A stretch of 64,000 nt of DNA from an uncultured Gammaproteobacteria bacterium (GCA_964602915.1 CAZRTB010000001.1:598417-662416), one strand, 5' to 3'. Shown: positions 27,362 through 47,882, counted from the first letter of the stretch. Numbers and translations: made by a program. The notes: generated from the letters alone by a model not told the origin.

Positions 27362-27365
27362 TGTA

Positions 27366-28061: not shown

Positions 28062-28758
28062 CTACTATATATACACAGGCATTTGTATCTGTTATTGATT
28101 TTGGAGTGATTTGATCTTCGACTAAGATTAAAAGATTTAAAATGCATGTTATGGGTAGTAAAACTAATGACCCTAAAACACCAAACTTATTTAAGATATT
28201 ATAAAAACCAAATAGAAAATATTGTGTAGTTAATGATAAAGGACCCATTAATGGGTATACTTTTTTAATCTTAAATCCTGAAGATTCTACTTCTTTTATT
28301 AATCCTTCTTTTGTCCATCTTCTATAATCTGTTGGGTGTGGATGATAAGGCCATACGCCGTGTGTTGAGAGAATTAACCAACCATCTTTTTTAAGAATTT
28401 TATAGCAGTTCTCTAAATATTTATTTACGTTCCAAACATGTTCTAATACTTGAAAGGAAGCCACTCCATTTGCATAACCATCAGATACAGGTATATTTTC
28501 ATCTGCTTTAATTTTATAATCAGCCTCATCTGTTATATCAGACTTTATATATCTGCAATTATATTTAATAAAAAGCTTTTCATAGGGTGAATATCCACAA
28601 CCATAATCAAAAATAATGTCTTCTGAACCTATTTTAATATCTGAATTAATAATATTAACTATTGCATTTTTTAAACAAGTTAAAACGTACCACTGATGAT
28701 CCCAAAATCTGGGATTTAATCTTAACTCGCCCTTATTTTTTTCTTCTAAAGAATTCAC
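28048..28758 (-). CDS. class I SAM-dependent methyltransferase
   Basis: IIFDYGCGYSPY motif I and post-I acidic residue (IKSD). The C-terminus is hydrophobic. Confidence 0.65.
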   Translation of the reverse strand: MNSLEEKNKGELRLNPRFWDHQWYVLTCLKNAIVNIINSDIKIGSEDIIFDYGCGYSPYEKLFIKYNCRYIKSDITDEADYKIKADENIPVSDGYANGVASFQVLEHVWNVNKYLENCYKILKKDGWLILSTHGVWPYHPHPTDYRRWTKEGLIKEVESSGFKIKKVYPLMGPLSLTTQYFLFGFYNILNKFGVLGSLVLLPITCILNLLILVEDQITPKSITDTNACVYIVVAYK

Positions 28759-28788
28759 TACTATAAATTTACCAAGTAAAGAACAAAT

Positions 28789-29649
28789 TTATGTCAACAA
28801 TAACTTTTTAAACCTATTTAACAAAGAAGATTTTTTATAACCCTTTAATATCTCAATATTTTCTATTTCACAAATATTATTTTTTGAGCTTAAAAAATTA
28901 TAGTCTCTCCAGTCATATGCTAATTCCCCATTAATTGAAATGCATATGTATTTTCTTGGATCTAATTTTGAAAACGCACTAAAAAACATCTTTGTAATAA
29001 AAGAATAAATTTTATCAAATCTCCACTCTTTAATTCTTCTTTTAAGCTCTATAGAAATATTATTTTCCCCTTCTATATAGTCATTAAATTCATTTGCACA
29101 ATCTGAAAATGTTACGATGTGAATATGATCAAATAACTTGTGATTCTTTAATAAATTAATTAGATTTTCTTTTGCTTTTGTAAAATTCTCAGTCTGTGTA
29201 TTTTTTTTATAATCACTTTCATTAGTATAAAACATTGAATACCATATATTTTTAAGTCCTGCTTTTTGAAGACTAATTAATCTTTCGGGTGTAAGTAATA
29301 CCCCATTAGTAGCAATCCAGATTTCAACATTATTAATTCCTGATATTGATGATATGTAATTCTCTAAATCTTTATAGATTAAAGGTTCACCTAAAACATG
29401 AAAGAAAATCTTAAATTTTATCTTTGGAAATGAAAGTAGAAACTCTTTTACTTTTCTTATTACTTTTTCATTTATAAAACCAGTCCTGTTTAATTTATCA
29501 ATAGGACAAAAAATACATTTATTATTACATTGAGCAGTGACTTCAGAATAAATCGTAATAGTAGAAAATTCTTTTAGATATCTGTTTAGTGATAAAGCAA
29601 AAAATGACATTTTAATCCTATTAATTATTTCTTTTCCATAATCCAACAA
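28789..29649 (-). CDS. radical SAM enzyme
   Basis: CNNKCIFCP is a CX3CX2C motif near the N-terminus. GEPL and NGVLL motifs are also present. Confidence 0.7.
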   Translation of the reverse strand: MLDYGKEIINRIKMSFFALSLNRYLKEFSTITIYSEVTAQCNNKCIFCPIDKLNRTGFINEKVIRKVKEFLLSFPKIKFKIFFHVLGEPLIYKDLENYISSISGINNVEIWIATNGVLLTPERLISLQKAGLKNIWYSMFYTNESDYKKNTQTENFTKAKENLINLLKNHKLFDHIHIVTFSDCANEFNDYIEGENNISIELKRRIKEWRFDKIYSFITKMFFSAFSKLDPRKYICISINGELAYDWRDYNFLSSKNNICEIENIEILKGYKKSSLLNRFKKLLLT

Positions 29650-30208
29650 ACTGTAAATGATTGCTTATATAGCCTAAAATTCCTGTGTGACATTTGGCTG
29701 GCTGAATTAGTTTTACAAGTGAAAAACCTTCTTTTTCTATAACAGGAAACCATTTAAAATTCTTCTGGTAATGATTTAATAAGCTAATAGTATATTCTCT
29801 GTTCCCGATTAAATCAAGAACATTCAATAAAGCTTTTTCAGGTAGAGTATTGTAATTATGATCTTTGATTAGTAAATAATTTTTTGTACACCTAAGAAGG
29901 TCTTTTAATGTACTCTCTGAATTATTGCAGTGGTGTAAAACATCAATGCTGAATGTTATATCAAACTCTCTAGTGTTAAATGGAAGCGACCCTCCGTTAT
30001 AAATTAAAATTTCATGATTTGTGTTTTTTCTTTTGTATACATCTATAGCTGTTATAGATTTTACAAGATTTAATTTTTTAATTTCATTTGAAAACCAACC
30101 ATCTCCACTACCAAAATCAAGCATTTTTTCAAATACTCCAAGATCTTTAATACAACTAGTGATTAAATTTAAAATGTGCTTTTGATATGATTTTAAATCA
30201 TTATCCAT
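29621..30208 (-). CDS. class I SAM-dependent methyltransferase
   Basis: KMLDFGSGDGWFS motif I and the acidic residue in TAIDV. Confidence 0.65.
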   Translation of the reverse strand: MDNDLKSYQKHILNLITSCIKDLGVFEKMLDFGSGDGWFSNEIKKLNLVKSITAIDVYKRKNTNHEILIYNGGSLPFNTREFDITFSIDVLHHCNNSESTLKDLLRCTKNYLLIKDHNYNTLPEKALLNVLDLIGNREYTISLLNHYQKNFKWFPVIEKEGFSLVKLIQPAKCHTGILGYISNHLQFVGLWKRNN

Positions 30209-31427
30209 TTTTGTGACGCTTTGATAGTCCTAACATGCTGGCAAAAAATCCGAAAAGCAGAGTTTGAAATCCTATTACACAAAAAGTTGTTCCAGTTGTT
30301 AACAATTCAATTCTTAAATTCTGATCAGTATGAAAATTAGAGTTAAACAAATAAAATAAATAAGACAGTGAAATCATGCCGACTAAAAGAGATAAAAGGC
30401 TGATTATAAGAGTTCTTTCTAGGTTGAACACTTTGAAAAAGAGTTTCATAAAACTATCAATAGGAAGAATACTTTCATTTACAGCATAGCCTTTTGCTAA
30501 AATTGCAAAAACGATAGCTTGATAACCAGATAAAATTAAAAAACTAGATACTTGAAATAATATTAATATCTGTTCTATATTAAAGTCGCTTTTTGTTGAG
30601 GTAAAACCATAGATAAGTCCAATCATTCCTGTGAGAAATAACATAAACCCAGGATATAAAAAGAGCCAGTTTGGACTATATATTAAAAGAAAACGCAAAG
30701 TTCTCCACCCATCTTTAAAAGTATTTAAATGCGGCTTTTTATTTTTTCTTCCATCTTTGTGTAATGTGATAGGGATTTCAGTAATTTTTGCATTAATGAA
30801 ACTTGGTTTAACTACTAGCTCTATTGCAAATTCCATTCCAGCACAAACAAGATTTAATTTTTTATAAAGGTCATTTGTAAAACCTCTTAACCCGCAAAGA
30901 GCATCATTAATGGGGATTTTAAACCATACTCTTGTTAAAAATGAAAAGAGCGGATTTCCAACCCATCTGTGAAGGAATGGCATTGCAGAGGGTAAAGTCT
31001 TTCCGCCTCCAGCAGGAAGCCTGCATCCTAAAACTAAATCATAGCCATTTTGTAGCTTGTTTAAAAAATTTGGGATTTCACTGAAATCATAACTCCCATC
31101 AGCATCACCCATAATAATATATTTTCCTTTTGCTGATTCAATGCCACCCATTAAGGCTTGTCCGTATCCTTTTTTTTCTATCGTAATAACTTTTGCCCCT
31201 AGTGATTCTGCTATTTTAGGAGAATCGTCATCACTATTATTATCAGCAACAATAACTTCACCTTTAATATGATGCTTTTCAAAAGTATCCTTTATCTTTT
31301 CTATGCAAAAACCTATTGTATCTGCTTCATTTAAGCAGGGAATAACTACAGATACTTCTAAATCAACATTACTCATTTCATTATATTTTGCCACAAATAT
31401 GTTTTTTAGAGGAGAAATATAAATCAA
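30201..31427 (-). CDS. GT2 polyprenyl-phosphate glycosyltransferase (Dpm1/GtrB/ArnC-like) with C-terminal membrane domain
   Basis: VSVVIPCLNEADTI...VADNNSDDDS...IIMGDADGSYD (GT-A DXD). The C-terminal 150 aa contains about 4 TM helices. Confidence 0.8.
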   Translation of the reverse strand: MIYISPLKNIFVAKYNEMSNVDLEVSVVIPCLNEADTIGFCIEKIKDTFEKHHIKGEVIVADNNSDDDSPKIAESLGAKVITIEKKGYGQALMGGIESAKGKYIIMGDADGSYDFSEIPNFLNKLQNGYDLVLGCRLPAGGGKTLPSAMPFLHRWVGNPLFSFLTRVWFKIPINDALCGLRGFTNDLYKKLNLVCAGMEFAIELVVKPSFINAKITEIPITLHKDGRKNKKPHLNTFKDGWRTLRFLLIYSPNWLFLYPGFMLFLTGMIGLIYGFTSTKSDFNIEQILILFQVSSFLILSGYQAIVFAILAKGYAVNESILPIDSFMKLFFKVFNLERTLIISLLSLLVGMISLSYLFYLFNSNFHTDQNLRIELLTTGTTFCVIGFQTLLFGFFASMLGLSKRHKNG

Positions 31428-32996: not shown

Positions 32997-34061
32997 GTGT
33001 CAGTTTTTGATAAAATTAAAGTAAAAAAAATAATAAGTTTTGCTAGTGATAATTACTCAGGAGTTCACCCTGACATTATGAATGCTATTGTTGAGGCTAA
33101 TGCTGGGCAGGCAAGAGCATACGGAGAAGATGATTATACTCTGATATCAGATGAGATCTTTAAAAAACATTTTGGAAAAAATATAGAAGTTTATTATGTT
33201 TTCAATGGTACTGCAGCAAATGTTTTAGGCTTGAAAGCTATTACGGAATCCTTCCATTCTATTATATGTGCGGAAACAGCACATATAAATGGAGATGAGT
33301 GTGGTGCTCCTGAAAGATTTACTGGTTGTAAGCTTTTAACAATTCCATCGCAAGATGGAAAAATTACTGTTGAGCAGATAAAAAAGTATCTCTATCATCT
33401 GGGAAATCATCATAGAAATCAGCCAAAAGTAATTTCAATTACTCAGCCCACAGAATATGGAACATTATATTCTCCTAGTGAAATAAGAAAAATAGCAGAT
33501 TATGCACATGAAAATAATTTATTTCTTCATATGGATGGAGCGAGGTTATCTAATGCTTCATCTGCACTGAATTTATCCCTGAAAGAAATTACTAAAGATG
33601 TAGGTGTAGATGTTTTATCTTTTGGTGGAACTAAAAATGGCATTATGAGTGGTGAGACTGTGATATTTTTTGATATGCCAGATATAGGATACAACTTTAA
33701 ATTTATTAGAAAGCAGGGAATGCAGTTAGTCTCAAAAATGAGATATATTTCTGCTCAGTTTATAGCATTCTTGTCTAATGATTTATGGTTAAAAAATGCA
33801 ACTCATGCAAATCAGATGGCAAGGCTGTTAGAAGAAAAACTTAAAACTATTCCAGCCATTAAAATTACTCAAAAAGTAGAAACAAATTCAGTCTTTGCAA
33901 TAATGCCAGAGAAAGTTATCCCAATAGCACAAGAAAAATACCCATTCTATATGTGGAATCCTGAGATTTCTGAGGTTAGATTTATGACTTCTTTTGATAC
34001 AGAAAAGCAGGATATAGAAAATTTTGTGAATGATTTAAAAGGTTTTTTAGCCGGCTTTTGA
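32997..34061 (+). CDS. ltaE: PLP-dependent low-specificity threonine aldolase family (beta-eliminating lyase fold)
   Basis: SFASDNYSGVHPDIMNAIVEANAG N-terminus, the ...HMDGARL.NA region, and the Schiff-base Lys in FGGTKNG. Confidence 0.7.
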   Translation: MSVFDKIKVKKIISFASDNYSGVHPDIMNAIVEANAGQARAYGEDDYTLISDEIFKKHFGKNIEVYYVFNGTAANVLGLKAITESFHSIICAETAHINGDECGAPERFTGCKLLTIPSQDGKITVEQIKKYLYHLGNHHRNQPKVISITQPTEYGTLYSPSEIRKIADYAHENNLFLHMDGARLSNASSALNLSLKEITKDVGVDVLSFGGTKNGIMSGETVIFFDMPDIGYNFKFIRKQGMQLVSKMRYISAQFIAFLSNDLWLKNATHANQMARLLEEKLKTIPAIKITQKVETNSVFAIMPEKVIPIAQEKYPFYMWNPEISEVRFMTSFDTEKQDIENFVNDLKGFLAGF

Positions 34062-35489
34062 AGAAGATATTCTTTTTGATTCTCTAATAATATCCATTGC
34101 ATTGTTAAAAACCAAATTAATATCCCTCTCATTTCTACAAACACGAGAATCACATAACACCTCAGCAGTGGTATTTATTAGATTAGAAGAGGCTCCTTCC
34201 TTGATAAGTTTAATAAACTCTTCTGTAAAGAATCCACTTCTAATATTTTCTCTGTTGTTAATAAATACTTCCATGAAACTGGATTGTTCTATTGGGATAT
34301 TTGCCTTTGCAAGCATATAAATATCATTATGTAAGTTCTCTAAAACAACACCATGTTTTGAAAAACATTTAGAGGAAATGTCAAAAAATCTTTCTAGATA
34401 TTTTTCATCAATATTATTTCCTATTAAAGAGATAGACTGATCTATCACACCACCATCTCTCATATAAAGACCTTCCTCGGAGCATTTAAAGAAACCAGTA
34501 TAAAAAGCTGTAAGCTGACTAATGCTTAATGATTTTATGGACAGAATCCTTGCATTACCTTCAAGAAAATCAAAAAGAGGTTTTTTACTTTTCCCAGAAA
34601 CCGTTATTTTATTTAATGAAGAGTTGTATACCCTAACAGGGAATTCTGTAGATAGGTATTTATCAAGATTGTCAAAAAATAAATCAATTTTTTTCGAATC
34701 AATGTTTAATTTTGATATTTGAGCAAGTGACTTAACAATAGGACTTAATTTGCAATAGTGTAAAGAAGGATAGTTTTTATTTGTGCCCATATGATAATTT
34801 AAGAGCTCATCTAATACAAGCATCATCCTATCTCCAGGGACTGAAATAAAAAAATCTCTATAACCACTAACCAGTTCTTCTAGCTTCCATTTGTCTGGCA
34901 TTGTTGTTTGTTCGTAAATAGCAGAGTCTAAAAATCCCCTCATTAAATATAACGATAAGTTCCTTATAGCATAGTTCTGTGTGGATATTTTCTCTTCATT
35001 ACTTAAGTCTCTAAGCAAAAGACATGCTTCGGAAATTTTTAGAAAATCACAGTTTTTCCTTCTGTCTGCATCACAGAGTGATCTAAGGCAAGCAGGTTTT
35101 TTTACTTCACCTAATCCGTGAGTAAGATATGTATCTGCTGAAGCCAACTTTAAAGTATTTAAAAATATTAATTCAGATTTTATATCATCAAGAGGAAAGC
35201 CACAGGTTACAAAATTTAGGACAGCTCTTTTTAAGTGATCTTTATTGAGATTATTTAAACTATTTAATAATTGGAGAAAGCCTTTTATTCCACTTTGTTC
35301 TTTTTGAAATTCCTTTGAAAAATCAACATTTTTCTTATGTTTTGCTAAATTACTTAGACAAAGTCTTATTCGTTCAGTTAAAATTTCTTCAAAAGAGTTT
35401 TCTTTTTTTTCTTCTACAGGTTTAACCTCTTTTACAGGTATTCGTGTAAGACGTTGTTTCAATGCATTATTGTTTGAAATAGGTTCCAT
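34047..35489 (-). CDS. hypothetical protein (480 aa)
   Basis: Long ORF with no recognisable motif. It is transcribed divergently from the helicase-nuclease gene. Confidence 0.45.
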   Translation of the reverse strand: MEPISNNNALKQRLTRIPVKEVKPVEEKKENSFEEILTERIRLCLSNLAKHKKNVDFSKEFQKEQSGIKGFLQLLNSLNNLNKDHLKRAVLNFVTCGFPLDDIKSELIFLNTLKLASADTYLTHGLGEVKKPACLRSLCDADRRKNCDFLKISEACLLLRDLSNEEKISTQNYAIRNLSLYLMRGFLDSAIYEQTTMPDKWKLEELVSGYRDFFISVPGDRMMLVLDELLNYHMGTNKNYPSLHYCKLSPIVKSLAQISKLNIDSKKIDLFFDNLDKYLSTEFPVRVYNSSLNKITVSGKSKKPLFDFLEGNARILSIKSLSISQLTAFYTGFFKCSEEGLYMRDGGVIDQSISLIGNNIDEKYLERFFDISSKCFSKHGVVLENLHNDIYMLAKANIPIEQSSFMEVFINNRENIRSGFFTEEFIKLIKEGASSNLINTTAEVLCDSRVCRNERDINLVFNNAMDIIRESKRISSSKAG

Positions 35490-35679
35490 AATAGTTATCT
35501 ATAAAACATACACTCTAGTTATCATTAGGGTCAATTATAAATCCATATAAGGAGCTTAATTTAAGATTAAAATAATTTAATTTATACAACAACTCGGAAT
35601 ACAGGATAGAAAAACAGTAATATTCGTCATATTTCTATATGAATTTTAGGAAATTTTAATTTTTAAAAATTATTAAAAC

Positions 35680-38600
35680 ATGGAAATTGAATCAATCTTA
35701 AAAGATATAAAAAACGAATTAAGTGAAATAAAACAACTTGATAAAAAATCCAATGCTGTAATTGAGAATAAATTAAAAAGATGGTGTGACACACTTTTAG
35801 ACCTAACAAAGAGAAATCCGTCACTTCATTTCCTTACTCATGTAAAAGCAGGAAAAAATAAAGGAAAAAGAAAACATAATATTTTTAAAATAAAACTTAC
35901 TTCAGAAGAAGTTTTTGAGAAGCTAGTAAATAAAACAGAAGTTTTAAATCTGTCTGATGCAGGATTGGTTGATTTAAGCAGAGGGTTTTCTAGATTTGGT
36001 TTTAGTAAAAAAAGAAGTTATTATATTTCTGTTTCAGAGGATATTCCAGAAGAAGGTGAAGAGGTCGAAGAATCTGAAGAATTAGAAGAAAATTTAGATG
36101 AAACACAAGATCTTGAAAATGAAACATTTCAGACTGAGCAAGAAGAAGAACTAATTGATAATAATTTAGTTATTTCCCAGTTTATAAGAATTAAAAGAGA
36201 TACAGAAAGTATTTTAGAAGAAAGAGGAACACACGTTCTTTATCTTATATGCGGGTTATTTGAGTGGAGAGATCCTCTGATATCTGATGAAATCTTAAAT
36301 ACCCCTATACTTTTTATTCCAGTTACAATTCAAAAAACCAGAACAAAAGATAGATTTAGTATTCATCTTGCAGAAAGTTCTGAAGTAGAATTTAATCCAA
36401 CATTTTCTTATTTATTAAAGAAAAACTATCAGCTGGATCTAGATAAAGAAATAAATGAAATATTAAATAATCAGGAAAATAAAGAAGATCTTTCACCAAT
36501 AAAACAAATCTTTGAATTAATAGAAACCAGATTAACAAAACTTCTTCAAGGGAAAATTAAAGATGAAACGTGGCTAGGTAAATTTTGGTTTGAAAAATTA
36601 GTTCTTTTGACTGATATTCAGAAGAATATAGGTGCTTTTGTAAATGATCCAATTATTCAAAATATTTGTGGTGAAAAACCTCAAGAAGAAATAGAACATA
36701 AAACAAATCTTGAAGAGTTATCTAGACAAGCGGAAAATAAAAAGCCTCTTGAGATATTTGAAGTACTTGATGCTGACTCTAGCCAAAGAAGGGCAATAGA
36801 ATCAGCAATTAGTAAAAAGAATTTTGTTTTAATAGGGCCACCGGGTACTGGAAAATCTCAAACAATTGCAAATATTATTTCAGAATGTCTGGTTAGAGGG
36901 AGAAAAGTTTTATTTGTTAGTGAAAAACTAGCCGCTTTGAAAGTGGTGAAAAAGAAATTAGAACAATGTAATTTAGGAAAACTATGTATATCTATTCATG
37001 GAAAAGAAACAAAGAAAAAAGATTTTTATTCGAACTTATATGACTGGTATGAAGAAGTCTTATCTTATAATCCAAAGCCAAATCAAGATGAAATAATTTA
37101 TGAAGAATTGGCAAACATAAAGAAAAGACTTAATGATTATGCTACTGCTCTTGGTAAAAATGATAGTTCGCTTAGCCATGTAGTGGAGAAGATTGGGAAA
37201 GAAGTAAAAACCTTAGAACTAACAAACCAATATATTCAAGGGAAATTATTAGGACTAGATAAAATCCCAGAAGTAAAAACAAGAATAAATATTGATGATT
37301 TAGATGTAAGAAAATACAAATCACAAAAAGAAGTTTTAGAAAAAACAATCCCCTATAAAGATATTGTCTTAAAAAAGACTTATAGCGACTGGTTCACTAC
37401 TGAACTAATGGGTCCATATACCATTGAAATGGAAGAGGATATTTTAAAAGCACTAAAAAGAATTAGTATTCAAGAATTAATAGGAATTATAGATGAAATA
37501 AACAATCTTTTAGAACTAAAAGCTTCCATGCCTTTATATAAAACCATTGATTTAATTGCATTTGTAAAAGAGATAGTTAATGCTCCTGAACTCGAATCAA
37601 ACCTTTTAAATCCAGAGGCAGTTTCAGATAGTGTAACAAAGTTAAGTTCAGACATTGCTCTTCATAAGAAATATATAGAAGAAAGAAAAAATCTTACAAA
37701 TTATTTTAATTCAAGCTTATTAGAAAAAGATCTAGATGATCTAAAAGAGAATTTCTCGGAAAAATATAAAGAAGATAAACTTAGATGGTTTAAACCAACA
37801 TATTGGAAAATAAGAAAAGAAGTTTCAAAGGATAAAGTCAAAACCCCTGATGGAAAAGAAAATATTTTTGATGACAATTTATATTTTAGTGAGATTGAAA
37901 GAGCAAGTACAATTAAAAAATTAGCTTTTGATATAGAAGCTCATACGAAAGAATTTTCACAAAGATATGGAAATACTTATGTAGGAGAAAATACAGACTG
38001 GGAAAAAGTTTCATATCTTTTAAATTATGCTGATTCGTTGTTTAAGCATCTGAATGAAAAGCTAAGCATCCCACATCTAGAAAGTATCGTCAGTTCTGCA
38101 CTGTCAGAGTGTCTCCAGTCAAAATACAGTCCTATAAAAGACAAGCTTAAACAATTACTTTTAAAACTAGAAAGCAAATTAAATGAATTTGATATTGCAT
38201 TTATAGCTCTCGGTCAATTTCTCCCATTATCATATGAAAAAGAAAAGTATGATGAGAAAAATAAATTAACTTCATATCCAAAATATATTTTTAATAAATC
38301 AGATTTTGGAATTAAAAATCTAGAAGAAGTTAAATTCTGGATTCAAAAATTAGAGAGGGATCTTAAAGAAGAGCCTTCACTTTTAGAGATATGGCTAGAG
38401 TTTAAAGAAATAAAAGAAGAAGCAAAAGAGCTAAGCCTGGAAGAATTTTTAGAAGATTTTAGTAAATTAGATCTTGATTATAATAATATTGTTCAAATCT
38501 TTGAAAAAAGAACATTAGAACTTTTACTTATAAATGCAGAAAAAGAAAGTCCTGCTCTTGCAAAATTTAGCGCAAATCGCTATCAAAAACTTCAGGAAGA

Positions 38601-40179
38601 CTTTAAAACTTTTGATAAGCAGTCGCTTAAATTAAATCAAAACAGAATATTTGAAATTGTTTCTAAGCAAATAAAAGAAAAACTAATGTTTCATCAGGAA
38701 CCAAGATTGCTTAAAAAACTTGGTCAACAAAAAAGACCTAAAAAGCCAATCAGGCAAGCTATTATAGATACAGAAGATTTATTCTTTTCATTAAAGCCGT
38801 GCTGGATGATGAGTCCACTTACGGTTAGTCAGTATTTACCGCCAAATGCATCTTTATTTGATGTAGTTATATTTGATGAGGCTTCTCAGGTAAGACCAGC
38901 AGATTCAATAGGAGCAATTTTCAGAGGAGATCAAATAATCGTAGTTGGCGATCCACGTCAGCTCCCCCCTACAAACTTTTTCCAAACAATGGCACAAGAT
39001 GACAAAAACATTTTAGATGATGAGGAAGATGAAGGATCAGAAGAAAGTATTATTGATGAGGTTTTAAGTAAAGCCTATGACATTGATGAAATCCCTTTGA
39101 AGTGGCACTATAGAAGTAAGAGCGAAGATCTTTTTTCTTTTGCTAGCCACAATATTTATTCCGACTTAGAGCTTATAACTTTCCCAAATCCAAAACCATA
39201 TTTAGAAGATGGAAGACCGCTTGGTGTAAAACATGTTTTAGTGAAAGACGGAGTTTATGACAGAGGTAAAACCAGAACAAATCTAAAAGAAGCTGAGCAG
39301 GTAGCTGATCTTGTAATAGAGCACTATACCCGTTATGGGACAGATAAATGTGATCCCAGGTATTTAAGCCTTGGAGTTATTGCCTTTAGTTCAGCACAGG
39401 AAGATGCTATTTTAAATGCTATTCAGAAAAGAAAAAAAGAATTTCCAGATATTGAGACTATTTTAGAAGATAAAGATGGAGAAGGTTTCTTTGTTAAGAA
39501 CCTCGAAACTGTACAAGGAGATGAGAGAGATCATATTATTATTTCAGTAGGATATGGCCCAGATTCTACAGGGAAAATGGTAAGCAATTTTGGACCATTA
39601 AACTCAGAGGGTGGATATAGAAGGCTAAATGTAGCTATAACAAGAGCTAGGTATCATTTGATGATAGTAAGCTCATTTAATCCACGAAGTTTTAATTTAA
39701 ACAGTAATCAGCAAGGAGCAAAACTCTTATTAAAATATTTACGATTTGCAGAACAAGGTAAAGCAGTATTGTTTGAAGATAAGCCAGAGCAAGCAAGTGC
39801 AGATACTTTTAATTCTCCATTTGAAGAAGAGGTTTTTAAGAGACTTTCAGAAAAAGGACTTGAAATCCACACTCAGGTAGGATGTAGTGGTTATAGAGTT
39901 GACATGGCAGTAATAAATCCTAAAAAACCAAATGAGTATTTATTTGCTATTGAATGTGACGGAAAAACATATCATGGGACTTTTTCGGCAAAAGACAGAG
40001 ATAGATTACGTCAGGAAATCCTAGAAGATAGAGGCTGGAAGGTCTACAGAATATGGTCTCGTGACTGGATGAAAAATCCAAAAAAAGAAATTTTAAGACT
40101 AATGGATTTTTATAATAGCCTTGTTCAAAAAGAAGAAGCAAAAGAGTTAATAGAAGATCTTGAAATGAATTTTGAGTAA
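35680..40179 (+). CDS. DUF4011-like N-region + SF1B (Upf1/DNA2-like) helicase + C-terminal DUF559/Vsr-like endonuclease fusion protein
   Basis: Helicase motifs are I LIGPPGTGKSQT, II VVIFDEASQV, III VVGDPRQLPPT, V ISVGYGPDSTG and VI RRLNVAITRARYHLMIV. The C-terminus has YRVDMAVINPKKPNEYLFAIECDGKTYHGTFSAKDRDRLRQEILEDRGWKVYRIW, the DUF559 pattern. There is an acidic low-complexity insert at residues about 125-160. Confidence 0.8.
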   Translation: MEIESILKDIKNELSEIKQLDKKSNAVIENKLKRWCDTLLDLTKRNPSLHFLTHVKAGKNKGKRKHNIFKIKLTSEEVFEKLVNKTEVLNLSDAGLVDLSRGFSRFGFSKKRSYYISVSEDIPEEGEEVEESEELEENLDETQDLENETFQTEQEEELIDNNLVISQFIRIKRDTESILEERGTHVLYLICGLFEWRDPLISDEILNTPILFIPVTIQKTRTKDRFSIHLAESSEVEFNPTFSYLLKKNYQLDLDKEINEILNNQENKEDLSPIKQIFELIETRLTKLLQGKIKDETWLGKFWFEKLVLLTDIQKNIGAFVNDPIIQNICGEKPQEEIEHKTNLEELSRQAENKKPLEIFEVLDADSSQRRAIESAISKKNFVLIGPPGTGKSQTIANIISECLVRGRKVLFVSEKLAALKVVKKKLEQCNLGKLCISIHGKETKKKDFYSNLYDWYEEVLSYNPKPNQDEIIYEELANIKKRLNDYATALGKNDSSLSHVVEKIGKEVKTLELTNQYIQGKLLGLDKIPEVKTRINIDDLDVRKYKSQKEVLEKTIPYKDIVLKKTYSDWFTTELMGPYTIEMEEDILKALKRISIQELIGIIDEINNLLELKASMPLYKTIDLIAFVKEIVNAPELESNLLNPEAVSDSVTKLSSDIALHKKYIEERKNLTNYFNSSLLEKDLDDLKENFSEKYKEDKLRWFKPTYWKIRKEVSKDKVKTPDGKENIFDDNLYFSEIERASTIKKLAFDIEAHTKEFSQRYGNTYVGENTDWEKVSYLLNYADSLFKHLNEKLSIPHLESIVSSALSECLQSKYSPIKDKLKQLLLKLESKLNEFDIAFIALGQFLPLSYEKEKYDEKNKLTSYPKYIFNKSDFGIKNLEEVKFWIQKLERDLKEEPSLLEIWLEFKEIKEEAKELSLEEFLEDFSKLDLDYNNIVQIFEKRTLELLLINAEKESPALAKFSANRYQKLQEDFKTFDKQSLKLNQNRIFEIVSKQIKEKLMFHQEPRLLKKLGQQKRPKKPIRQAIIDTEDLFFSLKPCWMMSPLTVSQYLPPNASLFDVVIFDEASQVRPADSIGAIFRGDQIIVVGDPRQLPPTNFFQTMAQDDKNILDDEEDEGSEESIIDEVLSKAYDIDEIPLKWHYRSKSEDLFSFASHNIYSDLELITFPNPKPYLEDGRPLGVKHVLVKDGVYDRGKTRTNLKEAEQVADLVIEHYTRYGTDKCDPRYLSLGVIAFSSAQEDAILNAIQKRKKEFPDIETILEDKDGEGFFVKNLETVQGDERDHIIISVGYGPDSTGKMVSNFGPLNSEGGYRRLNVAITRARYHLMIVSSFNPRSFNLNSNQQGAKLLLKYLRFAEQGKAVLFEDKPEQASADTFNSPFEEEVFKRLSEKGLEIHTQVGCSGYRVDMAVINPKKPNEYLFAIECDGKTYHGTFSAKDRDRLRQEILEDRGWKVYRIWSRDWMKNPKKEILRLMDFYNSLVQKEEAKELIEDLEMNFE

Positions 40180-40269
40180 ATCAGGTCAAATTCTAAAAAA
40201 TCCATTAAATTGACTTTTAACCATTGAGTTTATTAGTACAAATTTGCTAAAAGATAATTAATAAAGGGT

Positions 40270-41937
40270 TTGGGTGAGTGTATGGATGCTTCTAGGATAA
40301 ATGGAAGTTCTGGTTTAACAGGAGCAGGCTCTAGAAGAGATCAGGTATTGGATCAAGACCTTGAGAAAATACTCTTAGGAGCAGGAATTAGACCTAAAAA
40401 AGGAAGTATATTCTCTCCTCAGATTTTTTCTGCACTTAGAACTTTATGTAATCAAGATAAAATTGATGTAACATCCGTTTCAAAAGCCCTATCAACAGCA
40501 GGGTTGAATTTAAAAAAAGGTCAACCAGCTAATATTTCTAAAAGACTATCTGAACTATTAGGCAAAGATAATGAAACTATAGAAAAAGCACCAGAAGTTC
40601 AAACCTCTCTACTTGCTACGCAACCCCCAATTATTAACTTACAAAGAGGGAATGAATCACAAGCAATATATGGAGTTGGAAGCGAATTAATAGAACGAAT
40701 AGATAGAAAAGCTAATGAGTTAAATCTCAGCCCGGAATCCAGAACAAAATTAAACTCTGCAACTGCATGGTATTTAGCTGGATATAGTGAAATATTTTTA
40801 GCATTGAGAGAGTTAGCTCATACAGAACAAGCAAAGTATGGAGAGATAAAAAATGTTATAGGCTTACTTATGGATAAGGTTGAAGGAGGAAGGGCTCTAA
40901 ACCCTGAAACCTTAAGTTCTCCAGATGTACCTTTTACGATGGAGCATGTTACTGTTTTAGATACTGTAGTTAGAACAGATATTTTAATTCCTAATGGCTT
41001 ATCTGTCATTGTTACCAGGCAAGACATGCCACCAATTTTTTCACTAACAGTAAAAGATCCAAACATTCATAGAGCACCATCTGGTAGAGAAGTGCCAGTA
41101 TATGACCTACATTATTTGAATGGACGTATGGAATTTGATGGATTGTCATTATCTTCAATGGTTGTATTACCACATAGCTCTTTATCTCAGACTCCTAGAA
41201 CCTTTGAAAGATTTAAAGTACTTTCTCAATCATATGAGTCAGGATCTTATCGTCCTCCTTTGAGGTTTGATAACCCAAGAGATTTATTATTTTGGGCAGG
41301 AGTGCAGTTTTGTCGGCGAAATGAATCTCCAGAATCAATGTGGAAAAAACATGTCTTAGCTGAAGAGCTTATACATTCAGATGCAACAGCATTTTTTGAA
41401 GCAGTTATAGGAAGAAAAGAGACAGAAGGATTTACAGCGGAGGATCAAAAAAAAGCAAAAGTAATTTTAAAGCCAGAATCACCATTTAGGTCTTTAATTG
41501 AAAATAGAAGGTCTCCTCAAGAAAAAGAAAATATAGCATCAGCATTGAATGAACTGGAAGCCTGGTTATTAGTAATTGAAGGATCTAATAGTTCTTTATT
41601 TCCTTTAGTTGAAAATTGTCTGCATGGTATTTATCCAGAACTTCCAACTGTAGGTGAACTAGACCATTATGTTATAGGGAGGCATATTTTATCTGAGGAA
41701 TTTAAAAAAGAATTGAATCTAAATGGAAAATCTTGGATTGAATTTTTATCTTCTTTTAAGGGAAATAATGTCTCTCAAGATGAGCCTCTTTTAAGAGAGC
41801 TTGATGGAAAGATAAAACAGGGGGCAAGGAAAATCTATCAACGTAATTTTTATAATATAGAAGAAAGAAATCAAATTAAACCTGGTTGGACAACCTATAA
41901 AGCCATACCAAGAATTAGATTTGTAGAAGAAGGATAA
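40270..41937 (+). CDS. hypothetical protein (555 aa), downstream of the helicase-nuclease gene
   Basis: Long ORF 90 nt downstream of the helicase-nuclease gene with no motif recognised. Its GC content is visibly higher than that of its neighbours. Confidence 0.45.
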   Translation: MGECMDASRINGSSGLTGAGSRRDQVLDQDLEKILLGAGIRPKKGSIFSPQIFSALRTLCNQDKIDVTSVSKALSTAGLNLKKGQPANISKRLSELLGKDNETIEKAPEVQTSLLATQPPIINLQRGNESQAIYGVGSELIERIDRKANELNLSPESRTKLNSATAWYLAGYSEIFLALRELAHTEQAKYGEIKNVIGLLMDKVEGGRALNPETLSSPDVPFTMEHVTVLDTVVRTDILIPNGLSVIVTRQDMPPIFSLTVKDPNIHRAPSGREVPVYDLHYLNGRMEFDGLSLSSMVVLPHSSLSQTPRTFERFKVLSQSYESGSYRPPLRFDNPRDLLFWAGVQFCRRNESPESMWKKHVLAEELIHSDATAFFEAVIGRKETEGFTAEDQKKAKVILKPESPFRSLIENRRSPQEKENIASALNELEAWLLVIEGSNSSLFPLVENCLHGIYPELPTVGELDHYVIGRHILSEEFKKELNLNGKSWIEFLSSFKGNNVSQDEPLLRELDGKIKQGARKIYQRNFYNIEERNQIKPGWTTYKAIPRIRFVEEG

Positions 41938-41951
41938 AAATATTATTTTGG

Positions 41952-41973
41952 GACTTCAGACAAGCTGAAGTCT
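41952..41973. terminator. 8-bp perfect hairpin (GACTTCAG-acaagc-CTGAAGTC) between convergent genes
   Basis: Read directly. There is no strong U-tract on either side, so this is a weak terminator call. Confidence 0.3.
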
Positions 41974-42062
41974 CCTTCATAAATAAAAATTGATTGACCG
42001 GATTTGGTGAGTAAATCACACAAATCCTATAATTGCCAGTTAGTTAGAAGAAGAATAAAAAT

Positions 42063-42545
42063 TTAATTGAAACTTATATGACATCCGCCAGAAACTCCTT
42101 GTTTCTCAAAATATTTTTGGTGGTATTCTTCTGCTGGGTAAAACTTTGAAGCTGGTGCTATTTGTGTGACGATTGGTTTTTTAAAAAACTTAGCAGATTC
42201 GAATTCTTTTTTTACCTTTTCAGCAGTTTCTTTTTGGGATTCATTTTCATAAAAAATGGCAGACCTGTACTGAGATCCTACATCTGGTCCTTGCCTGTTC
42301 AGAGTCGTAGGATCGTGAATTTTAAAGAAAAAAGTTACTAGTTCTTCATAAGAAACTTTAGCCGGGTCAAACTCTACTAGAACTGCTTCAGCATGGTTTG
42401 TATTTCCACTACAAACTTCTTTATACGTAGGATTTTCAGTACGTCCACCGGTATAACCGCATGGTGCAGAAATGACACCATCTAATTTACTAAAAGCTAG
42501 TTCTACTCCCCAAAAACAACCACATGCAAATATTGCTTTTTCCAT
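42063..42545 (-). CDS. msrA: peptide methionine-S-sulfoxide reductase
   Basis: MEKAIFACGCFWGVE carries the GCFWG active site and GYTGG follows. The length is 160 aa. Confidence 0.9.
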   Translation of the reverse strand: MEKAIFACGCFWGVELAFSKLDGVISAPCGYTGGRTENPTYKEVCSGNTNHAEAVLVEFDPAKVSYEELVTFFFKIHDPTTLNRQGPDVGSQYRSAIFYENESQKETAEKVKKEFESAKFFKKPIVTQIAPASKFYPAEEYHQKYFEKQGVSGGCHISFN

Positions 42546-43549: not shown

Positions 43550-44194
43550 TTGTCTAATATAGAAACAGATATGAATATAAGATACATTCTTAACAAATTA
43601 ACTTTGGGATATTTTTTCCCTTTAAATAAACCTAGGCAAGTTAAAAATCAAAAGCCTTTATTGGCCTCTACTAATGAAGGACAAATTCCACCACAAACGC
43701 TTCTTCCTTCTAATTTAACTATTCCTGGATCTGAGCAGTCAGCCAAATCATTTTTAGGGGAAGAAAGACAAAGCTTACCCCCTACTCAACAAGAAGGATT
43801 AAAATCTATAAAACAATCTATATATTCTGCTTCAATTGATTTTCAAAGACAAAACAAGGATGAAAGAAGAAAGAAGTTTTTTGATGAAGATGGAAAAATA
43901 TTAACTGAATATAAACATCATTTTCAACGTGTTTTAAGGAGTTTTTACTTGGGTGAGGTTAATAAAGCAGAACGGCATTTAATAGATAATGAATATGCTC
44001 TGAACCATTTGTTCTTACATGAAATAAATGAATATTTTTTAGATAGATACTCTAATATAGTAGAAATTTCTGAAATTAAAGAATTCTTGAGGAATGAATT
44101 ATCAGCAATTTCACTACAATATGAAAAATTTACTTTAAATAATAAATTGACAGATACGTATGTGAATCTTCTTTTAAAACAGTTAACAGAGTAA
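43550..44194 (+). CDS. hypothetical protein (214 aa)
   Basis: ORF only. Confidence 0.35.
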   Translation: MSNIETDMNIRYILNKLTLGYFFPLNKPRQVKNQKPLLASTNEGQIPPQTLLPSNLTIPGSEQSAKSFLGEERQSLPPTQQEGLKSIKQSIYSASIDFQRQNKDERRKKFFDEDGKILTEYKHHFQRVLRSFYLGEVNKAERHLIDNEYALNHLFLHEINEYFLDRYSNIVEISEIKEFLRNELSAISLQYEKFTLNNKLTDTYVNLLLKQLTE

Positions 44195-46713: not shown

Positions 46714-47280
46714 ATGGATATTGATAGATATAAAAGAACTAATTACTATTTTCTTGCTAATTGTGAGTCTGCAGTAAGAACGTTACAATCATCTCCCAAA
46801 TTAAGAACAAATAAATTAACCCCGACTATACATGATTTAAATCCGACGGAATTAAAGGTTGTACTCCCAGACTTGCTTTCTGCAATATTAAGACTAGGTG
46901 TTGCCGATAATAATCTTTTAACATTCTTAACTAAACAAGAACTAAATACAGCAAGAAAAAGCCTGCTTCCTCTTGAGATGGGGGATATTAGAGCGGCGGC
47001 TATTTTTAAAAATATCTGGCAATCAGGAGAACCGTCTAAAGAAGTTAATGAGATATTTGGAATTGCAGATTGGAGATTACAGTCTTATTTACATGAGTGT
47101 GAAAGAGCATACATTGAAACAGATCCTACTATAGAAATAACATCAGAGTATTTATTAGAAGCTTATAATACAATTCGAGGAGAACAAAATTTTTTAAAAG
47201 ATCTTGGTGTAGGTGAAGGAAAGTTGCTAGAAGAAAAACCACCAGAAGAAAAACGTAAAAAAAGAACTAAAGCCAGCTAG
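46714..47280 (+). CDS. hypothetical protein (188 aa)
   Basis: ORF only. Confidence 0.35.
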   Translation: MDIDRYKRTNYYFLANCESAVRTLQSSPKLRTNKLTPTIHDLNPTELKVVLPDLLSAILRLGVADNNLLTFLTKQELNTARKSLLPLEMGDIRAAAIFKNIWQSGEPSKEVNEIFGIADWRLQSYLHECERAYIETDPTIEITSEYLLEAYNTIRGEQNFLKDLGVGEGKLLEEKPPEEKRKKRTKAS

Positions 47281-47360
47281 TATTTCTAAAAAAAATCTTA
47301 TAGTATTTAAGAAATAGTGTATTTCATAGTTAAAATATTCTCTTAATAAGAGGAATTTAT

Positions 47361-47882
47361 ATGACATTTAGAATATCAGAAGCTTCTTTAAAAGCTCAAA
47401 TAAGACAAATCTCACCACCATCGATACCAGGGAAAAACCTGAATGCAGTAGAACAAGTTTTACTCAGGATGAAGCAGGAAGCTTTTATCAATCAATCAAT
47501 GGTTGTTAAATTAAGGCATTTAGTGATTTCACTTTTCTCTATGGCAAATGGACCAGCAAAATTTAATGCAGATGAAATCCTTAGAACTGGTGGAATCTTA
47601 AATCATGATTTGAGGGATTTTTTAGATTTAGAAAGACCTTATAATCCTGAACTTTTAATAGATGAAAATTATACTGCTAGTCCACTTGTGCAAGAAATCT
47701 TAGAAGGTGCAAAAATACTGTCTAAAGCTGAAAGACCTGAAACTCAAGAAGGGCAAATAGCAAGTACTCAGTTTATTTTGCAGGCACTTATCAACCATTT
47801 CTCTAAGGGAAGAAGTAAAGAATATGGTGAATATCAGATCATTGAAGCAATTACGACAAAAAAATTAGCTTCAATGGATTAG
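47361..47882 (+). CDS. hypothetical protein (173 aa)
   Basis: ORF only. GAGGA lies 6 nt upstream of the ATG. Confidence 0.4.
   Translation: MTFRISEASLKAQIRQISPPSIPGKNLNAVEQVLLRMKQEAFINQSMVVKLRHLVISLFSMANGPAKFNADEILRTGGILNHDLRDFLDLERPYNPELLIDENYTASPLVQEILEGAKILSKAERPETQEGQIASTQFILQALINHFSKGRSKEYGEYQIIEAITTKKLASMD

What the first reader, a model, noticed from the sequence alone, without database searches (positions are those of the whole stretch)
35680..41937. 1499-aa single-polypeptide DUF4011-like + Upf1-like SF1B helicase + DUF559/Vsr-type endonuclease, with a 555-aa unknown partner: candidate defence or novel nucleic-acid-processing module
Seen in sequence: all SF1B helicase motifs are present (GPPGTGKS, DEAS, GDPRQLPPT, and an RRLNVAITRA arginine finger). 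The C-terminus has a clear DUF559/Vsr-fold nuclease signature (ECDGKTYHG...DRDRLRQEILEDRGWKVYRIW). The long N-terminal region is acidic. Established knowledge: single-gene helicase + Vsr-like endonuclease fusions with a DUF4011 N-region have, as far as I recall, been reported as anti-phage defence proteins (the Hhe type), and Upf1-like helicase-nuclease pairs recur in defence systems such as Mokosh. Inference: the immediately downstream 555-aa ORF has no recognisable domain and visibly higher GC, and is a candidate co-functioning or co-acquired partner. The upstream 480-aa divergent ORF is also unannotatable. Together these form a roughly 8-kb block of unknown-function genes between housekeeping genes (threonine aldolase, msrA).
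Basis: partly seen in the sequence, partly recalled or inferred. Interest (0 to 1): 0.7.

Follow-up and report, generated by a model that had tools for sequence, protein, structure and literature searches.

The report
Stand-alone Hhe-like helicase–nuclease gene
The 1499-residue protein is an intact member of a very large, already catalogued family of helicase–nuclease fusions, some of which protect bacteria from phages. Here it is a stable, vertically inherited chromosomal gene, and its unknown neighbours are unrelated strain-specific genes, not partners.

Summary
The ORFs, helicase motifs and C-terminal nuclease are real. Window 35680-40179 (+) encodes DUF4011, a split Upf1-like SF1B helicase and a Vsr-like PD-(D/E)xK nuclease (Pfam MTES_1575, 118 bits). 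Its best defence-database match is the PADLOC candidate PDC-S37 (1036 bits). It scores below NCBI's cut-offs for ProA (987 against 1500) and Hhe (668 against 2000), and it lacks the roughly 245-residue C-terminal extension that most homologues carry. It keeps 151 of 152 near-invariant family positions, so it is probably active.

The "module" reading fails. In four close relatives (78-100% identity) the helicase sits between threonine aldolase and msrA, but the flanking slots differ: 480 aa, 595/572 aa or nothing upstream; 551 aa, 251/252 aa or nothing downstream. Homologues of the 555-aa protein are never next to such a helicase. All three genes have native GC and GC3. The helicase diverges no faster than its housekeeping neighbours, and no defence island is present.

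Verdict: a new member of a known kind, in a Caenarcanales (Vampirovibrionia) genome. An antiviral role is inferred from homology only, and a genome-maintenance role is equally possible. The 555-aa protein belongs to a rare uncharacterised family and is a minor curiosity.

The parts
35680..40179 (+). Gene for the 1499-aa stand-alone helicase-nuclease (DUF4011, split SF1B helicase, MTES_1575 nuclease)
   Evidence: ORF. Pfam architecture. PADLOC PDC-S37 1036 bits and Hhe 469 bits. NCBIfam ProA 987 bits and Hhe 668 bits, both below cut-off. 151 of 152 family-invariant columns retained.
35794..36414 (+). DUF4011 N-terminal domain (residues 39-245)
   Evidence: Pfam PF13195, E=4.1e-18, profile positions 2-157 of 158.
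36034..36165 (+). Lineage-specific acidic insert inside DUF4011 (residues 119-162, 50% D/E)
   Evidence: Alignment occupancy is 0.28 for residues 101-150 among 119 homologues.
36775..37017 (+). First part of RecA1, with Walker A GPPGTGKS (residues 386-393, nt 36835-36858)
   Evidence: Pfam AAA_19, AAA_30 and AAA_11. Motif positions. PDB sequence hits to IGHMBP2 and Upf1 over residues 355-434.
37018..38754 (+). Insertion of about 580 residues between helicase motifs I/Ia and II. No domain model matches it. It is weakly conserved across the family (15-28% column identity).
   Evidence: No Pfam coverage. Conservation profile.
38755..38973 (+). Second part of RecA1: Walker B DEAS (residues 1066-1069) and motif III GDPRQLPPT (residues 1090-1098)
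   Evidence: Pfam AAA_11 profile positions 187-253 of 257.. PDB hits to Sen1, DNA2 and Nam7.
39070..39675 (+). RecA2 (AAA_12) with motif V TVQGDERD (1277-1284) and motif VI RRLNVAITRA (1314-1323)
   Evidence: Pfam PF13087, E=5.3e-14..
39820..40107 (+). Vsr-like PD-(D/E)xK endonuclease domain (MTES_1575). Residues D1408, E1425, D1427, R1440, D1441 and R1442 match at least 95% of homologues.
   Evidence: Pfam PF18741, E=1.5e-34, 118 bits; DUF559 marginal at 20.8 bits. Conserved residues.
35490..35679 (.). 190-nt AT-rich divergent intergenic region between the 480-aa ORF and the helicase gene. Promoters are presumed here but not demonstrated.
   Evidence: The consensus scan gives fewer promoter-like sites than shuffled sequence, so it has no predictive value.
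40270..41937 (+). Neighbour, not a partner: 555-aa ORF (probably 551 aa from the ATG at 40282). Member of a rare uncharacterised family with the motif AEELxHSD at residues 364-371.
34047..35489 (-). Neighbour, not a partner: 480-aa divergent ORFan, overlapping the 3' end of the threonine aldolase gene by 15 nt
   Evidence: No family hit above threshold. No similarity to the 595/572-aa genes in the same slot of relatives. Single-sequence AF2 model is unusable, pLDDT 36.6.

Best explanation
The 1499-aa protein is a self-sufficient, single-gene helicase-nuclease of the DUF4011 / Upf1-like SF1B / Vsr-like (MTES_1575) family. This family includes E. coli Hhe, NCBI's 'ProA' and PADLOC's candidate PDC-S37. 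The window's protein is a short form without the C-terminal DUF3320-type extension.

Likely mechanism (inferred from the domains and from Hhe, not shown here): the SF1B motor uses ATP to translocate along a nucleic-acid strand, and the C-terminal PD-(D/E)xK domain cuts it. DUF4011 and the roughly 580-residue insertion in RecA1 would provide substrate or trigger recognition.

In this Caenarcanales (Vampirovibrionia) lineage the gene is a long-standing chromosomal resident, inherited vertically under purifying selection. It lies between threonine aldolase and msrA. It works without the flanking 480-aa and 555-aa ORFs, which are strain-specific genes in variable slots.

Whether its physiological target is phage DNA (immunity) or the cell's own aberrant DNA or RNA (genome maintenance) cannot be decided from sequence. 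I put antiviral or foreign-DNA surveillance at about one half.
For: - Architecture and motifs.
- Family assignment: PDC-S37 1036 bits over profile positions 5-1349 of 1550; Hhe 469 bits; ProA 987 bits and Hhe 668 bits. More than 7500 homologues with the same Pfam architecture.
- Intactness: 151 of 152 columns that are at least 95% conserved among 119 homologues are retained. The only change is K1438 for R.
- Upf1-like SF1B core: PDB sequence hits to IGHMBP2, Sen1, DNA2 and Upf1/Nam7.
- Vertical inheritance: the order ThrAld - helicase - MsrA - EamA/FolB/PabB is kept in the window, L001, L008 and L016. MsrA is still adjacent in L003 at 63% identity, and 3 kb away in L012 at 46%.
- Rate of change: helicase identity is 78-82% against L001 and L008, on a par with ThrAld 81-83, MsrA 80-82, EamA 74-77 and PEPCK 77. 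It is higher than its neighbours in L003 (66% against 51-59%).
- Native composition: GC 0.304, GC3 0.185.
- No conserved partner: slot contents differ and are mutually unrelated.
- Hhe precedent: a single gene, active against lambda, T3, T7 and PhiV-1, with nuclease mutant E1731A abolishing the weak anti-T7 activity assayed there (bioRxiv 10.1101/2022.06.16.496414). T7 DNA-metabolism genes act as triggers (bioRxiv 10.1101/2024.10.10.617714).
Against: - No experiment has been done.
- The protein is below NCBI's equivalog cut-offs for both validated relatives, and beyond its own clade it is only about 31-36% identical to other family members, so function transfer is loose.
- The conserved syntenic housekeeping setting, the slow evolution and the lack of any defence neighbours are atypical for mobile defence genes and fit a housekeeping role equally well.
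- The 102-nt gap to the 551-aa ORF has no terminator-like site, so co-transcription in this one genome cannot be excluded.
Confidence: 0.75

Rival explanations
1. One reading: the helicase-nuclease, the downstream 555-aa protein and perhaps the upstream 480-aa protein form a co-acquired multi-gene defence or nucleic-acid-processing module.
For: The helicase and the 555-aa ORF are on the same strand, separated by a 90-102 nt gap with no terminator-like site. Both flanking genes are of unknown function.
Against: - The 555-aa gene is present in 1 of 4 closely related genomes and in none of the 7 more distant loci. Other genomes have an unrelated 251/252-aa gene, two dockerin/C39-like genes, UbiB or nothing at that position.
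- Four contexts of 555-family homologues were read, three with annotated flanking genes; none shows a DUF4011 helicase.
- The A1 profile and BLAST find no copy in any helicase locus.
- GC and GC3 are native for all three genes.
- None of the variable neighbours scanned in L001, L003, L008, L012 and L016 gives a credible hit to a PADLOC family (one 15-bit CARF_PDDEXK hit at E=0.0015).
Confidence: 0.05
2. The protein is a housekeeping genome-maintenance or RNA/DNA quality-control enzyme of this lineage (for example processing stalled forks, recombination intermediates or R-loops), not an immune protein. Its family resemblance to Hhe reflects shared biochemistry only.
For: - Conserved synteny among core metabolic genes across 45-100% identity.
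- It evolves as slowly as, or more slowly than, its housekeeping neighbours.
- No defence island is present.
- In the 45-46% clade it is divergently paired with RmuC, a recombination-associated nuclease, in three loci.
- A large DUF4011 gene is a core gene present in every P. aeruginosa isolate (PMC10250203).
- The helicase core is closest to the eukaryotic maintenance helicases IGHMBP2, Sen1 and DNA2.
Against: - The characterised bacterial member, Hhe, and NCBI's 'ProA' (labelled anti-phage by NCBI; I found no source paper) are both annotated as anti-phage.
- The broad family is common on plasmids: 561 plasmid records, many of them conjugative.
- A core location does not exclude immunity.
Confidence: 0.4
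3. The flanks of the helicase gene are a gene-gain hotspot, comparable to P. aeruginosa cDHS1, which is bordered by a core DUF4011 gene. On this reading the 480-, 555-, 251- and 595-aa ORFs would be novel accessory cargo, possibly defence or effector genes.
For: Four close genomes have four different combinations of flanking ORFs. L001_595 and L016_572 are only 43% identical, while a neighbouring gene is 84% identical. PMC10250203 describes a core DUF4011 gene as the right flank of a defence hotspot.
Against: - ORFans are frequent throughout this genome (for example 43550-44194, 46714-47882, 53268-55160 and 57166-61848), so variability here may not be special.
- No integrase, tRNA or flanking repeats are found.
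- No credible PADLOC hit for the cargo: none for the window ORFs, one marginal hit in L012.
- Cargo composition is native.
Confidence: 0.15

Closest known systems
Hhe (E. coli single-gene anti-phage helicase + Vsr endonuclease; NCBIfam NF042953, PADLOC PDLC02194)
   Same: Same domain order: DUF4011, SF1B helicase (AAA_11/AAA_12), then a Vsr-like nuclease with a conserved acidic catalytic residue. It is also a single gene with no conserved partner.
   Different: It scores 668 bits against the 2000-bit equivalog cut-off, and only the C-terminal half aligns well (profile positions 1099-1689 of 1797). It is about 300 residues shorter. It sits at a conserved housekeeping locus rather than on a mobile island. 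Activity is untested.
ProA ('anti-phage protein ProA', NCBIfam NF058533)
   Same: Best NCBIfam match: 987 bits, a single stretch covering residues 15-1489.
   Different: It is below the 1500-bit cut-off. It covers only profile positions 343-1714 of 1903, so it lacks about 340 N-terminal and about 190 C-terminal positions. I could not find the source paper in the accessible library.
PADLOC candidate PDC-S37
   Same: Near full-length match: 1036 bits, profile positions 5-1349 of 1550. This is the closest catalogued type.
   Different: PDC-S37 is a computational candidate. I found no publication or validation for it, so the match conveys architecture and not a proven function.
Core DUF4011 gene of Pseudomonas aeruginosa (PA14_RS11765) flanking defence hotspot cDHS1
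   Same: A large DUF4011 protein that is a conserved chromosomal core gene, with variable genes next to it (PMC10250203).
   Different: The sequence relationship to the window protein was not tested here. The variable genes in P. aeruginosa are recognised defence systems, whereas here they are unannotatable ORFans.
Eukaryotic Upf1-like SF1B helicases (IGHMBP2/SMUBP-2, Sen1, DNA2, Upf1/Nam7)
   Same: Same helicase superfamily and motifs. They are the only solved structures that match by sequence. DNA2 is also a helicase-nuclease fusion.
   Different: Similarity is limited to the RecA core (E from 1e-11 to 1e-4). They have no DUF4011 and no Vsr-like nuclease, and their accessory domains differ.

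Membership tests
DUF4011 / SF1B / Vsr-like helicase-nuclease superfamily (Hhe-like in the broad sense) | N-terminal DUF4011 domain | tested here: met
   Pfam PF13195, 66.3 bits against a 22.2 cut-off, residues 39-245.
DUF4011 / SF1B / Vsr-like helicase-nuclease superfamily (Hhe-like in the broad sense) | Complete Upf1-like SF1B motor (Walker A, Walker B, motifs III, V and VI) | tested here: met
   AAA_11 at 53.4 bits and AAA_12 at 52.7 bits, both above their cut-offs. Motifs located. All near-invariant helicase residues retained.
DUF4011 / SF1B / Vsr-like helicase-nuclease superfamily (Hhe-like in the broad sense) | C-terminal Vsr-like PD-(D/E)xK endonuclease with conserved acidic residues | tested here: met
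   MTES_1575 at 118.4 bits against a 38.2 cut-off. D1408, E1425 and D1427 match at least 95% of 119 homologues. The fold itself was not modelled.
Hhe (NCBIfam NF042953 equivalog) | Whole-protein score at or above the curated cut-off of 2000 bits | tested here: not met
   668.1 bits, in two stretches. The best stretch covers residues 882-1487 only.
Hhe (NCBIfam NF042953 equivalog) | Nuclease catalytic Glu equivalent to E. coli Hhe E1731 | not tested
   No E. coli Hhe sequence was available to align. E1425 in ECDG is the obvious candidate.
Hhe (NCBIfam NF042953 equivalog) | Confers phage resistance as a single gene | not testable with these tools
   Requires cloning and plaque assays.
ProA (NCBIfam NF058533 equivalog) | Whole-protein score at or above the curated cut-off of 1500 bits, with a full-length match | tested here: not met
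   986.6 bits, profile positions 343-1714 of 1903. The clade has 36 residues after the nuclease against a median of 245 in homologues.
PADLOC PDC-S37 (candidate) | Best and near full-length match to the PDC-S37 model | tested here: met
   1035.9 bits, residues 27-1489 on profile positions 5-1349 of 1550. This is twice the Hhe score. No curated threshold is shown.
Mokosh (MkoA/MkoC) | Full-length similarity to MkoA, plus a partner or PLD nuclease | tested here: not met
   MkoA gives only local helicase-core hits (103 bits over residues 1197-1336); the MkoC hit is longer (residues 745-1371) but weak (60 bits). No PLD domain is present.
Multi-gene defence module / defence island | Partner gene co-occurs with the helicase in relatives | tested here: not met
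   The 555-aa and 480-aa genes are absent from all 10 or more related loci. Contexts of 555-family homologues lack the helicase.
Multi-gene defence module / defence island | Neighbourhood enriched in known defence or mobile-element genes | tested here: not met
   The neighbours are GT2, GGR, ThrAld, MsrA, EamA, FolB, PabB/C, LeuA and PEPCK. The only other PADLOC hits are a candidate PDC-S01 ATPase 9.5 kb away and a weak generic radical-SAM match.
Multi-gene defence module / defence island | Foreign base composition | tested here: not met
   GC z-scores are -0.5, -0.4 and +1.0, and GC3 z-scores are +0.9, -0.3 and -0.5, for the 480-aa, helicase and 555-aa genes respectively.

The most novel reading that the evidence does not exclude
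In Vampirovibrionia the DUF4011 helicase-nuclease is a core genome-surveillance gene. On this reading its two flanks are preferred landing or fast-turnover sites for lineage-specific genes, echoing the core DUF4011 gene that borders the P. aeruginosa hotspot cDHS1. The 551-aa 'AEELxHSD' protein would be one such cargo. It would represent a new, possibly zincin-like, enzyme family that also occurs as a module inside 2000-6000-residue giant proteins.
Probability: 0.12. Interest if true: 0.5.

Novelty: new member of a known kind. Interest (0 to 1): 0.25.

Why it matters
It matters only modestly. The result extends the Hhe/ProA/PDC-S37 helicase-nuclease family to non-photosynthetic cyanobacterial relatives (Caenarcanales). 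It shows a short form without the C-terminal extension.

It also gives a clean example of such a gene behaving as a slowly evolving, syntenic core gene rather than as island cargo. That bears on an open question: are these big DUF4011 proteins dedicated immune proteins, or genome-maintenance enzymes that can be co-opted for immunity?

Finally, it removes a false lead. The 555-aa 'partner' need not be cloned together with the helicase.

Tried and rejected
- **555-aa protein as partner:** rejected by neighbourhood comparison from both sides.
- **The 555/558-aa genes 2-3 kb downstream of the helicase in L012/L013:** they looked like counterparts by size. They are homologous to each other (40%) but not to the window's 555-aa protein, by BLAST, by the A1 profile and by a shuffle test with z=-0.7.
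- **480-aa ORF against the 595/572-aa ORFs in the same slot and orientation:** no detectable similarity (z=1.8).
- **Foreign composition:** rejected.
- **Mobile-element boundaries:** only one tRNA, 20 kb away. There are no meaningful direct or inverted repeats and no integrase in the window.
- **Third homology search, with alignment A1:** it returned only the query itself, so the search was wasted.
- **Other scans for the 555 family:** the A1 alignment was too divergent for a locus scan, and a metagenome scan with the 551-aa protein found nothing.
- **Structure of the 480-aa protein without an alignment:** pLDDT 36.6, unusable.
- **afdb50 fold library:** unavailable.
- **Literature for ProA and PDC-S37:** nothing found. 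Gao et al. 2020 is not held.


Full report
**1. What is there**

The window carries the three ORFs described:
- 34047-35489 (-), 480 aa.
- 35680-40179 (+), 1499 aa.
- 40270-41937 (+), 555 aa from a TTG. An ATG at 40282 preceded by GGGTGAG is the more likely start and gives the 551-aa product called in ENA.

Every quoted motif is present in the 1499-aa protein:
- Walker A GPPGTGKS, 386-393.
- Walker B DEAS, 1066-1069.
- Motif III GDPRQLPPT, 1090-1098.
- Motif V TVQGDERD, 1277-1284.
- Motif VI RRLNVAITRA, 1314-1323.
- Nuclease signature ECDG, 1425-1428, followed by DRDRLRQ and YRIW.

Pfam gives the following domains:

| Domain | Residues | Score |
|---|---|---|
| DUF4011 | 39-245 | E=4e-18 |
| RecA1 (AAA_19/AAA_11), split by an uncharacterised insertion of about 580 residues | 366-446 and 1026-1098 | 53.4 bits (AAA_11) |
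| AAA_12 | 1131-1332 | 52.7 bits |
| MTES_1575 restriction-endonuclease-like domain | 1381-1476 | 118 bits |

DUF559 is only marginal (20.8 bits against a 20.6 cut-off). 'Vsr-like PD-(D/E)xK nuclease' is therefore right, but MTES_1575 is the precise family. By sequence, the only solved structures matched are the Upf1-like SF1B helicases IGHMBP2, Sen1, DNA2 and Upf1/Nam7.

The 'acidic N-terminus' is a 44-residue insert (119-162, 50% D/E) inside DUF4011 that most homologues lack.

**2. Which family**

- PADLOC's best hit is the candidate PDC-S37: 1036 bits over profile positions 5-1349 of 1550. Hhe follows at 469 bits.
- NCBIfam's best hit is 'anti-phage protein ProA' at 987 bits, then Hhe at 668 bits. 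Both are below their curated equivalog cut-offs of 1500 and 2000.
- The ProA match spans only profile positions 343-1714 of 1903.
- In an alignment with 119 homologues, the protein and its clade end 36 residues after the nuclease. The median homologue has 245 more residues, and many carry PF11784/DUF3320.
- The family is huge: more than 7500 hits at E<=1e-10, from Bacteria and Archaea. It also occurs on 561 plasmid records at about 30% identity.
- The window protein keeps 151 of the 152 columns that are at least 95% conserved. The single change is K1438 for R. It therefore looks enzymatically intact.

**3. Organism and setting**

The 79%-identical relative is from a 'Candidatus Caenarcanales bacterium' MAG. 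This points to Vampirovibrionia, the non-photosynthetic cyanobacterial relatives (this placement is from my own knowledge). All related loci have 30-34% GC.

The surrounding genes are housekeeping: GT2 and methyltransferase/radical-SAM glycan genes, geranylgeranyl reductase, threonine aldolase, MsrA, EamA, FolB, PabB, PabC, LeuA, PEPCK and aspartokinase.

The only other PADLOC hits within about 15 kb are a candidate PDC-S01 (AAA_14/DUF4143 ATPase, 49673-50830) and a weak generic radical-SAM match to pVip. There is no integrase, and no repeat boundaries are found. The only tRNA is 20 kb away.

**4. Is the 555-aa (or 480-aa) gene a partner?**

No.

In the closest sub-clade the backbone ThrAld - helicase - MsrA - EamA/FolB/PabB is constant, but the two slots next to the helicase vary:

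| Genome (identity to window helicase) | Slot upstream of helicase | Slot downstream of helicase |
|---|---|---|
| Window | 480 aa (-) | 551 aa (+) |
| L008 (83%) | nothing (63-nt gap) | 251 aa |
| L001/L006 (79%) | 595 aa (-) | nothing |
| L016 (78%) | 572 aa (-) | 252 aa |

- The 595- and 572-aa proteins are orthologues, but only 43% identical.
- The 251- and 252-aa proteins are 70% identical.
- Neither the 480-aa nor the 555-aa protein resembles any of these. BLAST, the A1 profile and shuffle tests (z<2) all find nothing.

More distant relatives show other arrangements:
- L003 (63%): MsrA - HEAT protein - helicase - two dockerin/C39-like genes.
- L007 and L015 (64%): helicase - UbiB - ferredoxin - FAD oxidoreductase - CdsA.
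- L012-14 (45-46%): a divergent RmuC upstream of the helicase.

From the other side, the 555-aa protein is nearly an orphan. The word-indexed search found only itself. A full HMMER scan of 1.84 billion representatives found 20 weak relatives, with a best match of 36% identity over 235 residues. The four whose contexts could be read lie next to SelR/SDF/pst genes, YtxH, an aminotransferase/UbiE methyltransferase, or on a contig too short to tell. None is near a DUF4011 helicase.

None of the variable neighbours gives a credible hit to a PADLOC family; the only hit is a 15-bit CARF_PDDEXK match (E=0.0015) for a 136-aa ORF in L012.

**5. Acquired or native?**

Native.
- Composition: for the 480-aa, helicase and 555-aa genes, GC is 0.303, 0.304 and 0.347, and GC3 is 0.214, 0.185 and 0.180. 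The means over the window's genes are GC 0.317±0.030 and GC3 0.193±0.024.
- Rate against L001 and L008: the helicase is 78% and 82% identical. Its flanking orthologues are similar: ThrAld 81/83, MsrA 80/82, EamA 74/77, PabB 72, PEPCK 77, LeuA 88.
- Rate against L003: the helicase is 66% identical, while MsrA is 54%, EamA 51% and FolB 59%. Here it is more conserved than its neighbours.

This is the signature of vertical descent under purifying selection. It is not that of shuffled island cargo.

**6. How it probably works**

Shown here:
- an intact SF1B ATPase/translocase fused to an intact-looking PD-(D/E)xK nuclease;
- no conserved partner.

Inferred from E. coli hhe:
- It is a single gene, active against lambda, T3, T7 and PhiV-1. 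In that preprint's own assays its activity against T7 was very weak, and the nuclease mutant E1731A abolished it (bioRxiv 10.1101/2022.06.16.496414). That preprint cites its ref. 25, which I take from memory to be Gao et al. 2020; I could not read it.
- Several T7 class II DNA-metabolism genes and Bas63 g40 behave as triggers. This suggests it senses a consequence of phage DNA metabolism rather than a single protein (bioRxiv 10.1101/2024.10.10.617714).

By analogy, the motor would load on an abnormal DNA or RNA structure and deliver the nuclease to it.

The conserved core-like locus, the RmuC pairing in the 45% clade, and the report of a large DUF4011 protein as a core gene in every P. aeruginosa isolate (PMC10250203) keep a genome-maintenance role fully open. 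I cannot separate the two roles by computation.

**7. The 555-aa protein itself**

- With a 12-sequence alignment, AlphaFold gives a confident model: pLDDT 80.9, pTM 0.71. It shows an N-terminal helical module, then an alpha/beta plus helical domain from about residue 220 to 545.
- Foldseek finds nothing significant.
- The family's conserved motif is AEELxHSD. E365 and D371 are invariant, and the His is present in 8 of 12 members. There is no HExxH motif.
- The domain also occurs inside 2000-6000-residue proteins that carry HATPase, GNAT, metallophosphatase or WD40 domains.

I leave its function open. It is a minor curiosity, independent of the helicase.

**8. Verdict**

The family assignment is supported in the broad sense: Hhe/ProA/PDC-S37-like, but not an equivalog of either validated protein. 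The 'module', 'partner' and 'co-acquired block' interpretation is not supported.

This is a new member, in short form, of a known kind, in an under-sampled phylum. Interest is low to moderate.

Noticed in passing
[not shown]
   Followed up: partly
window 41937-42545; ENA ERZ27297570 contig (P0123) and L010 643-2839: The window's 555-aa gene lies next to msrA (convergent). Its full-length relative P0123 lies directly downstream of msrB (SelR) on the same strand. With only two cases this may be coincidence.
   Followed up: no
L001 7976-9763 (-), L016 6045-7763 (-), window 34047-35489 (-): The ORF between threonine aldolase and the helicase is in the same orientation in three of these four genomes, and in the window, L001 and L016 it overlaps the 3' end of the aldolase gene. 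It evolves extremely fast or gets replaced. L001 and L016 copies are 43% identical, while an adjacent ~210-aa gene is 84% identical between L001 and L016. The window's 480-aa version has no detectable similarity, and L008 has no gene there.
   Followed up: partly
L012 6532-7823 and 12341-13782; L013 6629-7926 and 12302-14386; L014: In the 45-46%-identity clade the helicase is divergently paired with an RmuC gene. It is also bracketed on both sides by paralogous genes of about 140 aa (for example L012 6532-6942 and 13357-13782, 46% identical). One of these gives a very weak PADLOC CARF_PDDEXK hit (E=0.0015).
   Followed up: no
window 49673-50830 (+): An AAA_14 + DUF4143 ATPase matches the PADLOC candidate PDC-S01 (221 bits). 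It is inserted between LeuA and PEPCK. In the 79% relative L001 those two genes are adjacent, so this is another strain-specific insertion.
   Followed up: partly
window 57166-61848 (-) and 53268-55160 (-): A 1560-aa ORF has only a borderline DUF58 hit over 32 residues, and a 630-aa ORF has no Pfam hit. Both are large unannotated proteins in the same window.
   Followed up: no
window 26225-31427 (-): A cluster of GT4 and GT2 glycosyltransferases, three methyltransferases and a radical-SAM protein. The GT2 resembles archaeal AglJ / dolichyl-phosphate hexose transferases. The radical-SAM protein gives a weak, probably generic pVip hit (28.9 bits).
   Followed up: no
L001 276-2369: In the 79% relative, a tyrosine integrase (HTH_17 + Phage_integrase) and a DUF3800 gene lie about 7.6 kb upstream of the helicase, outside the conserved ThrAld-helicase-MsrA block.
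   Followed up: no
L003 14807-18073: In the 63% relative, the slot downstream of the helicase holds two tandem paralogues (64% identical) with Dockerin_1 and Peptidase_C39_2 domains plus faint EF-hand hits. This is an unusual combination for this phylum.
   Followed up: no
window 61918-62622 (-): A 234-aa staphylococcal-nuclease (SNase) homologue lies directly downstream of (3' to) the 1560-aa unknown ORF on the minus strand.
   Followed up: no
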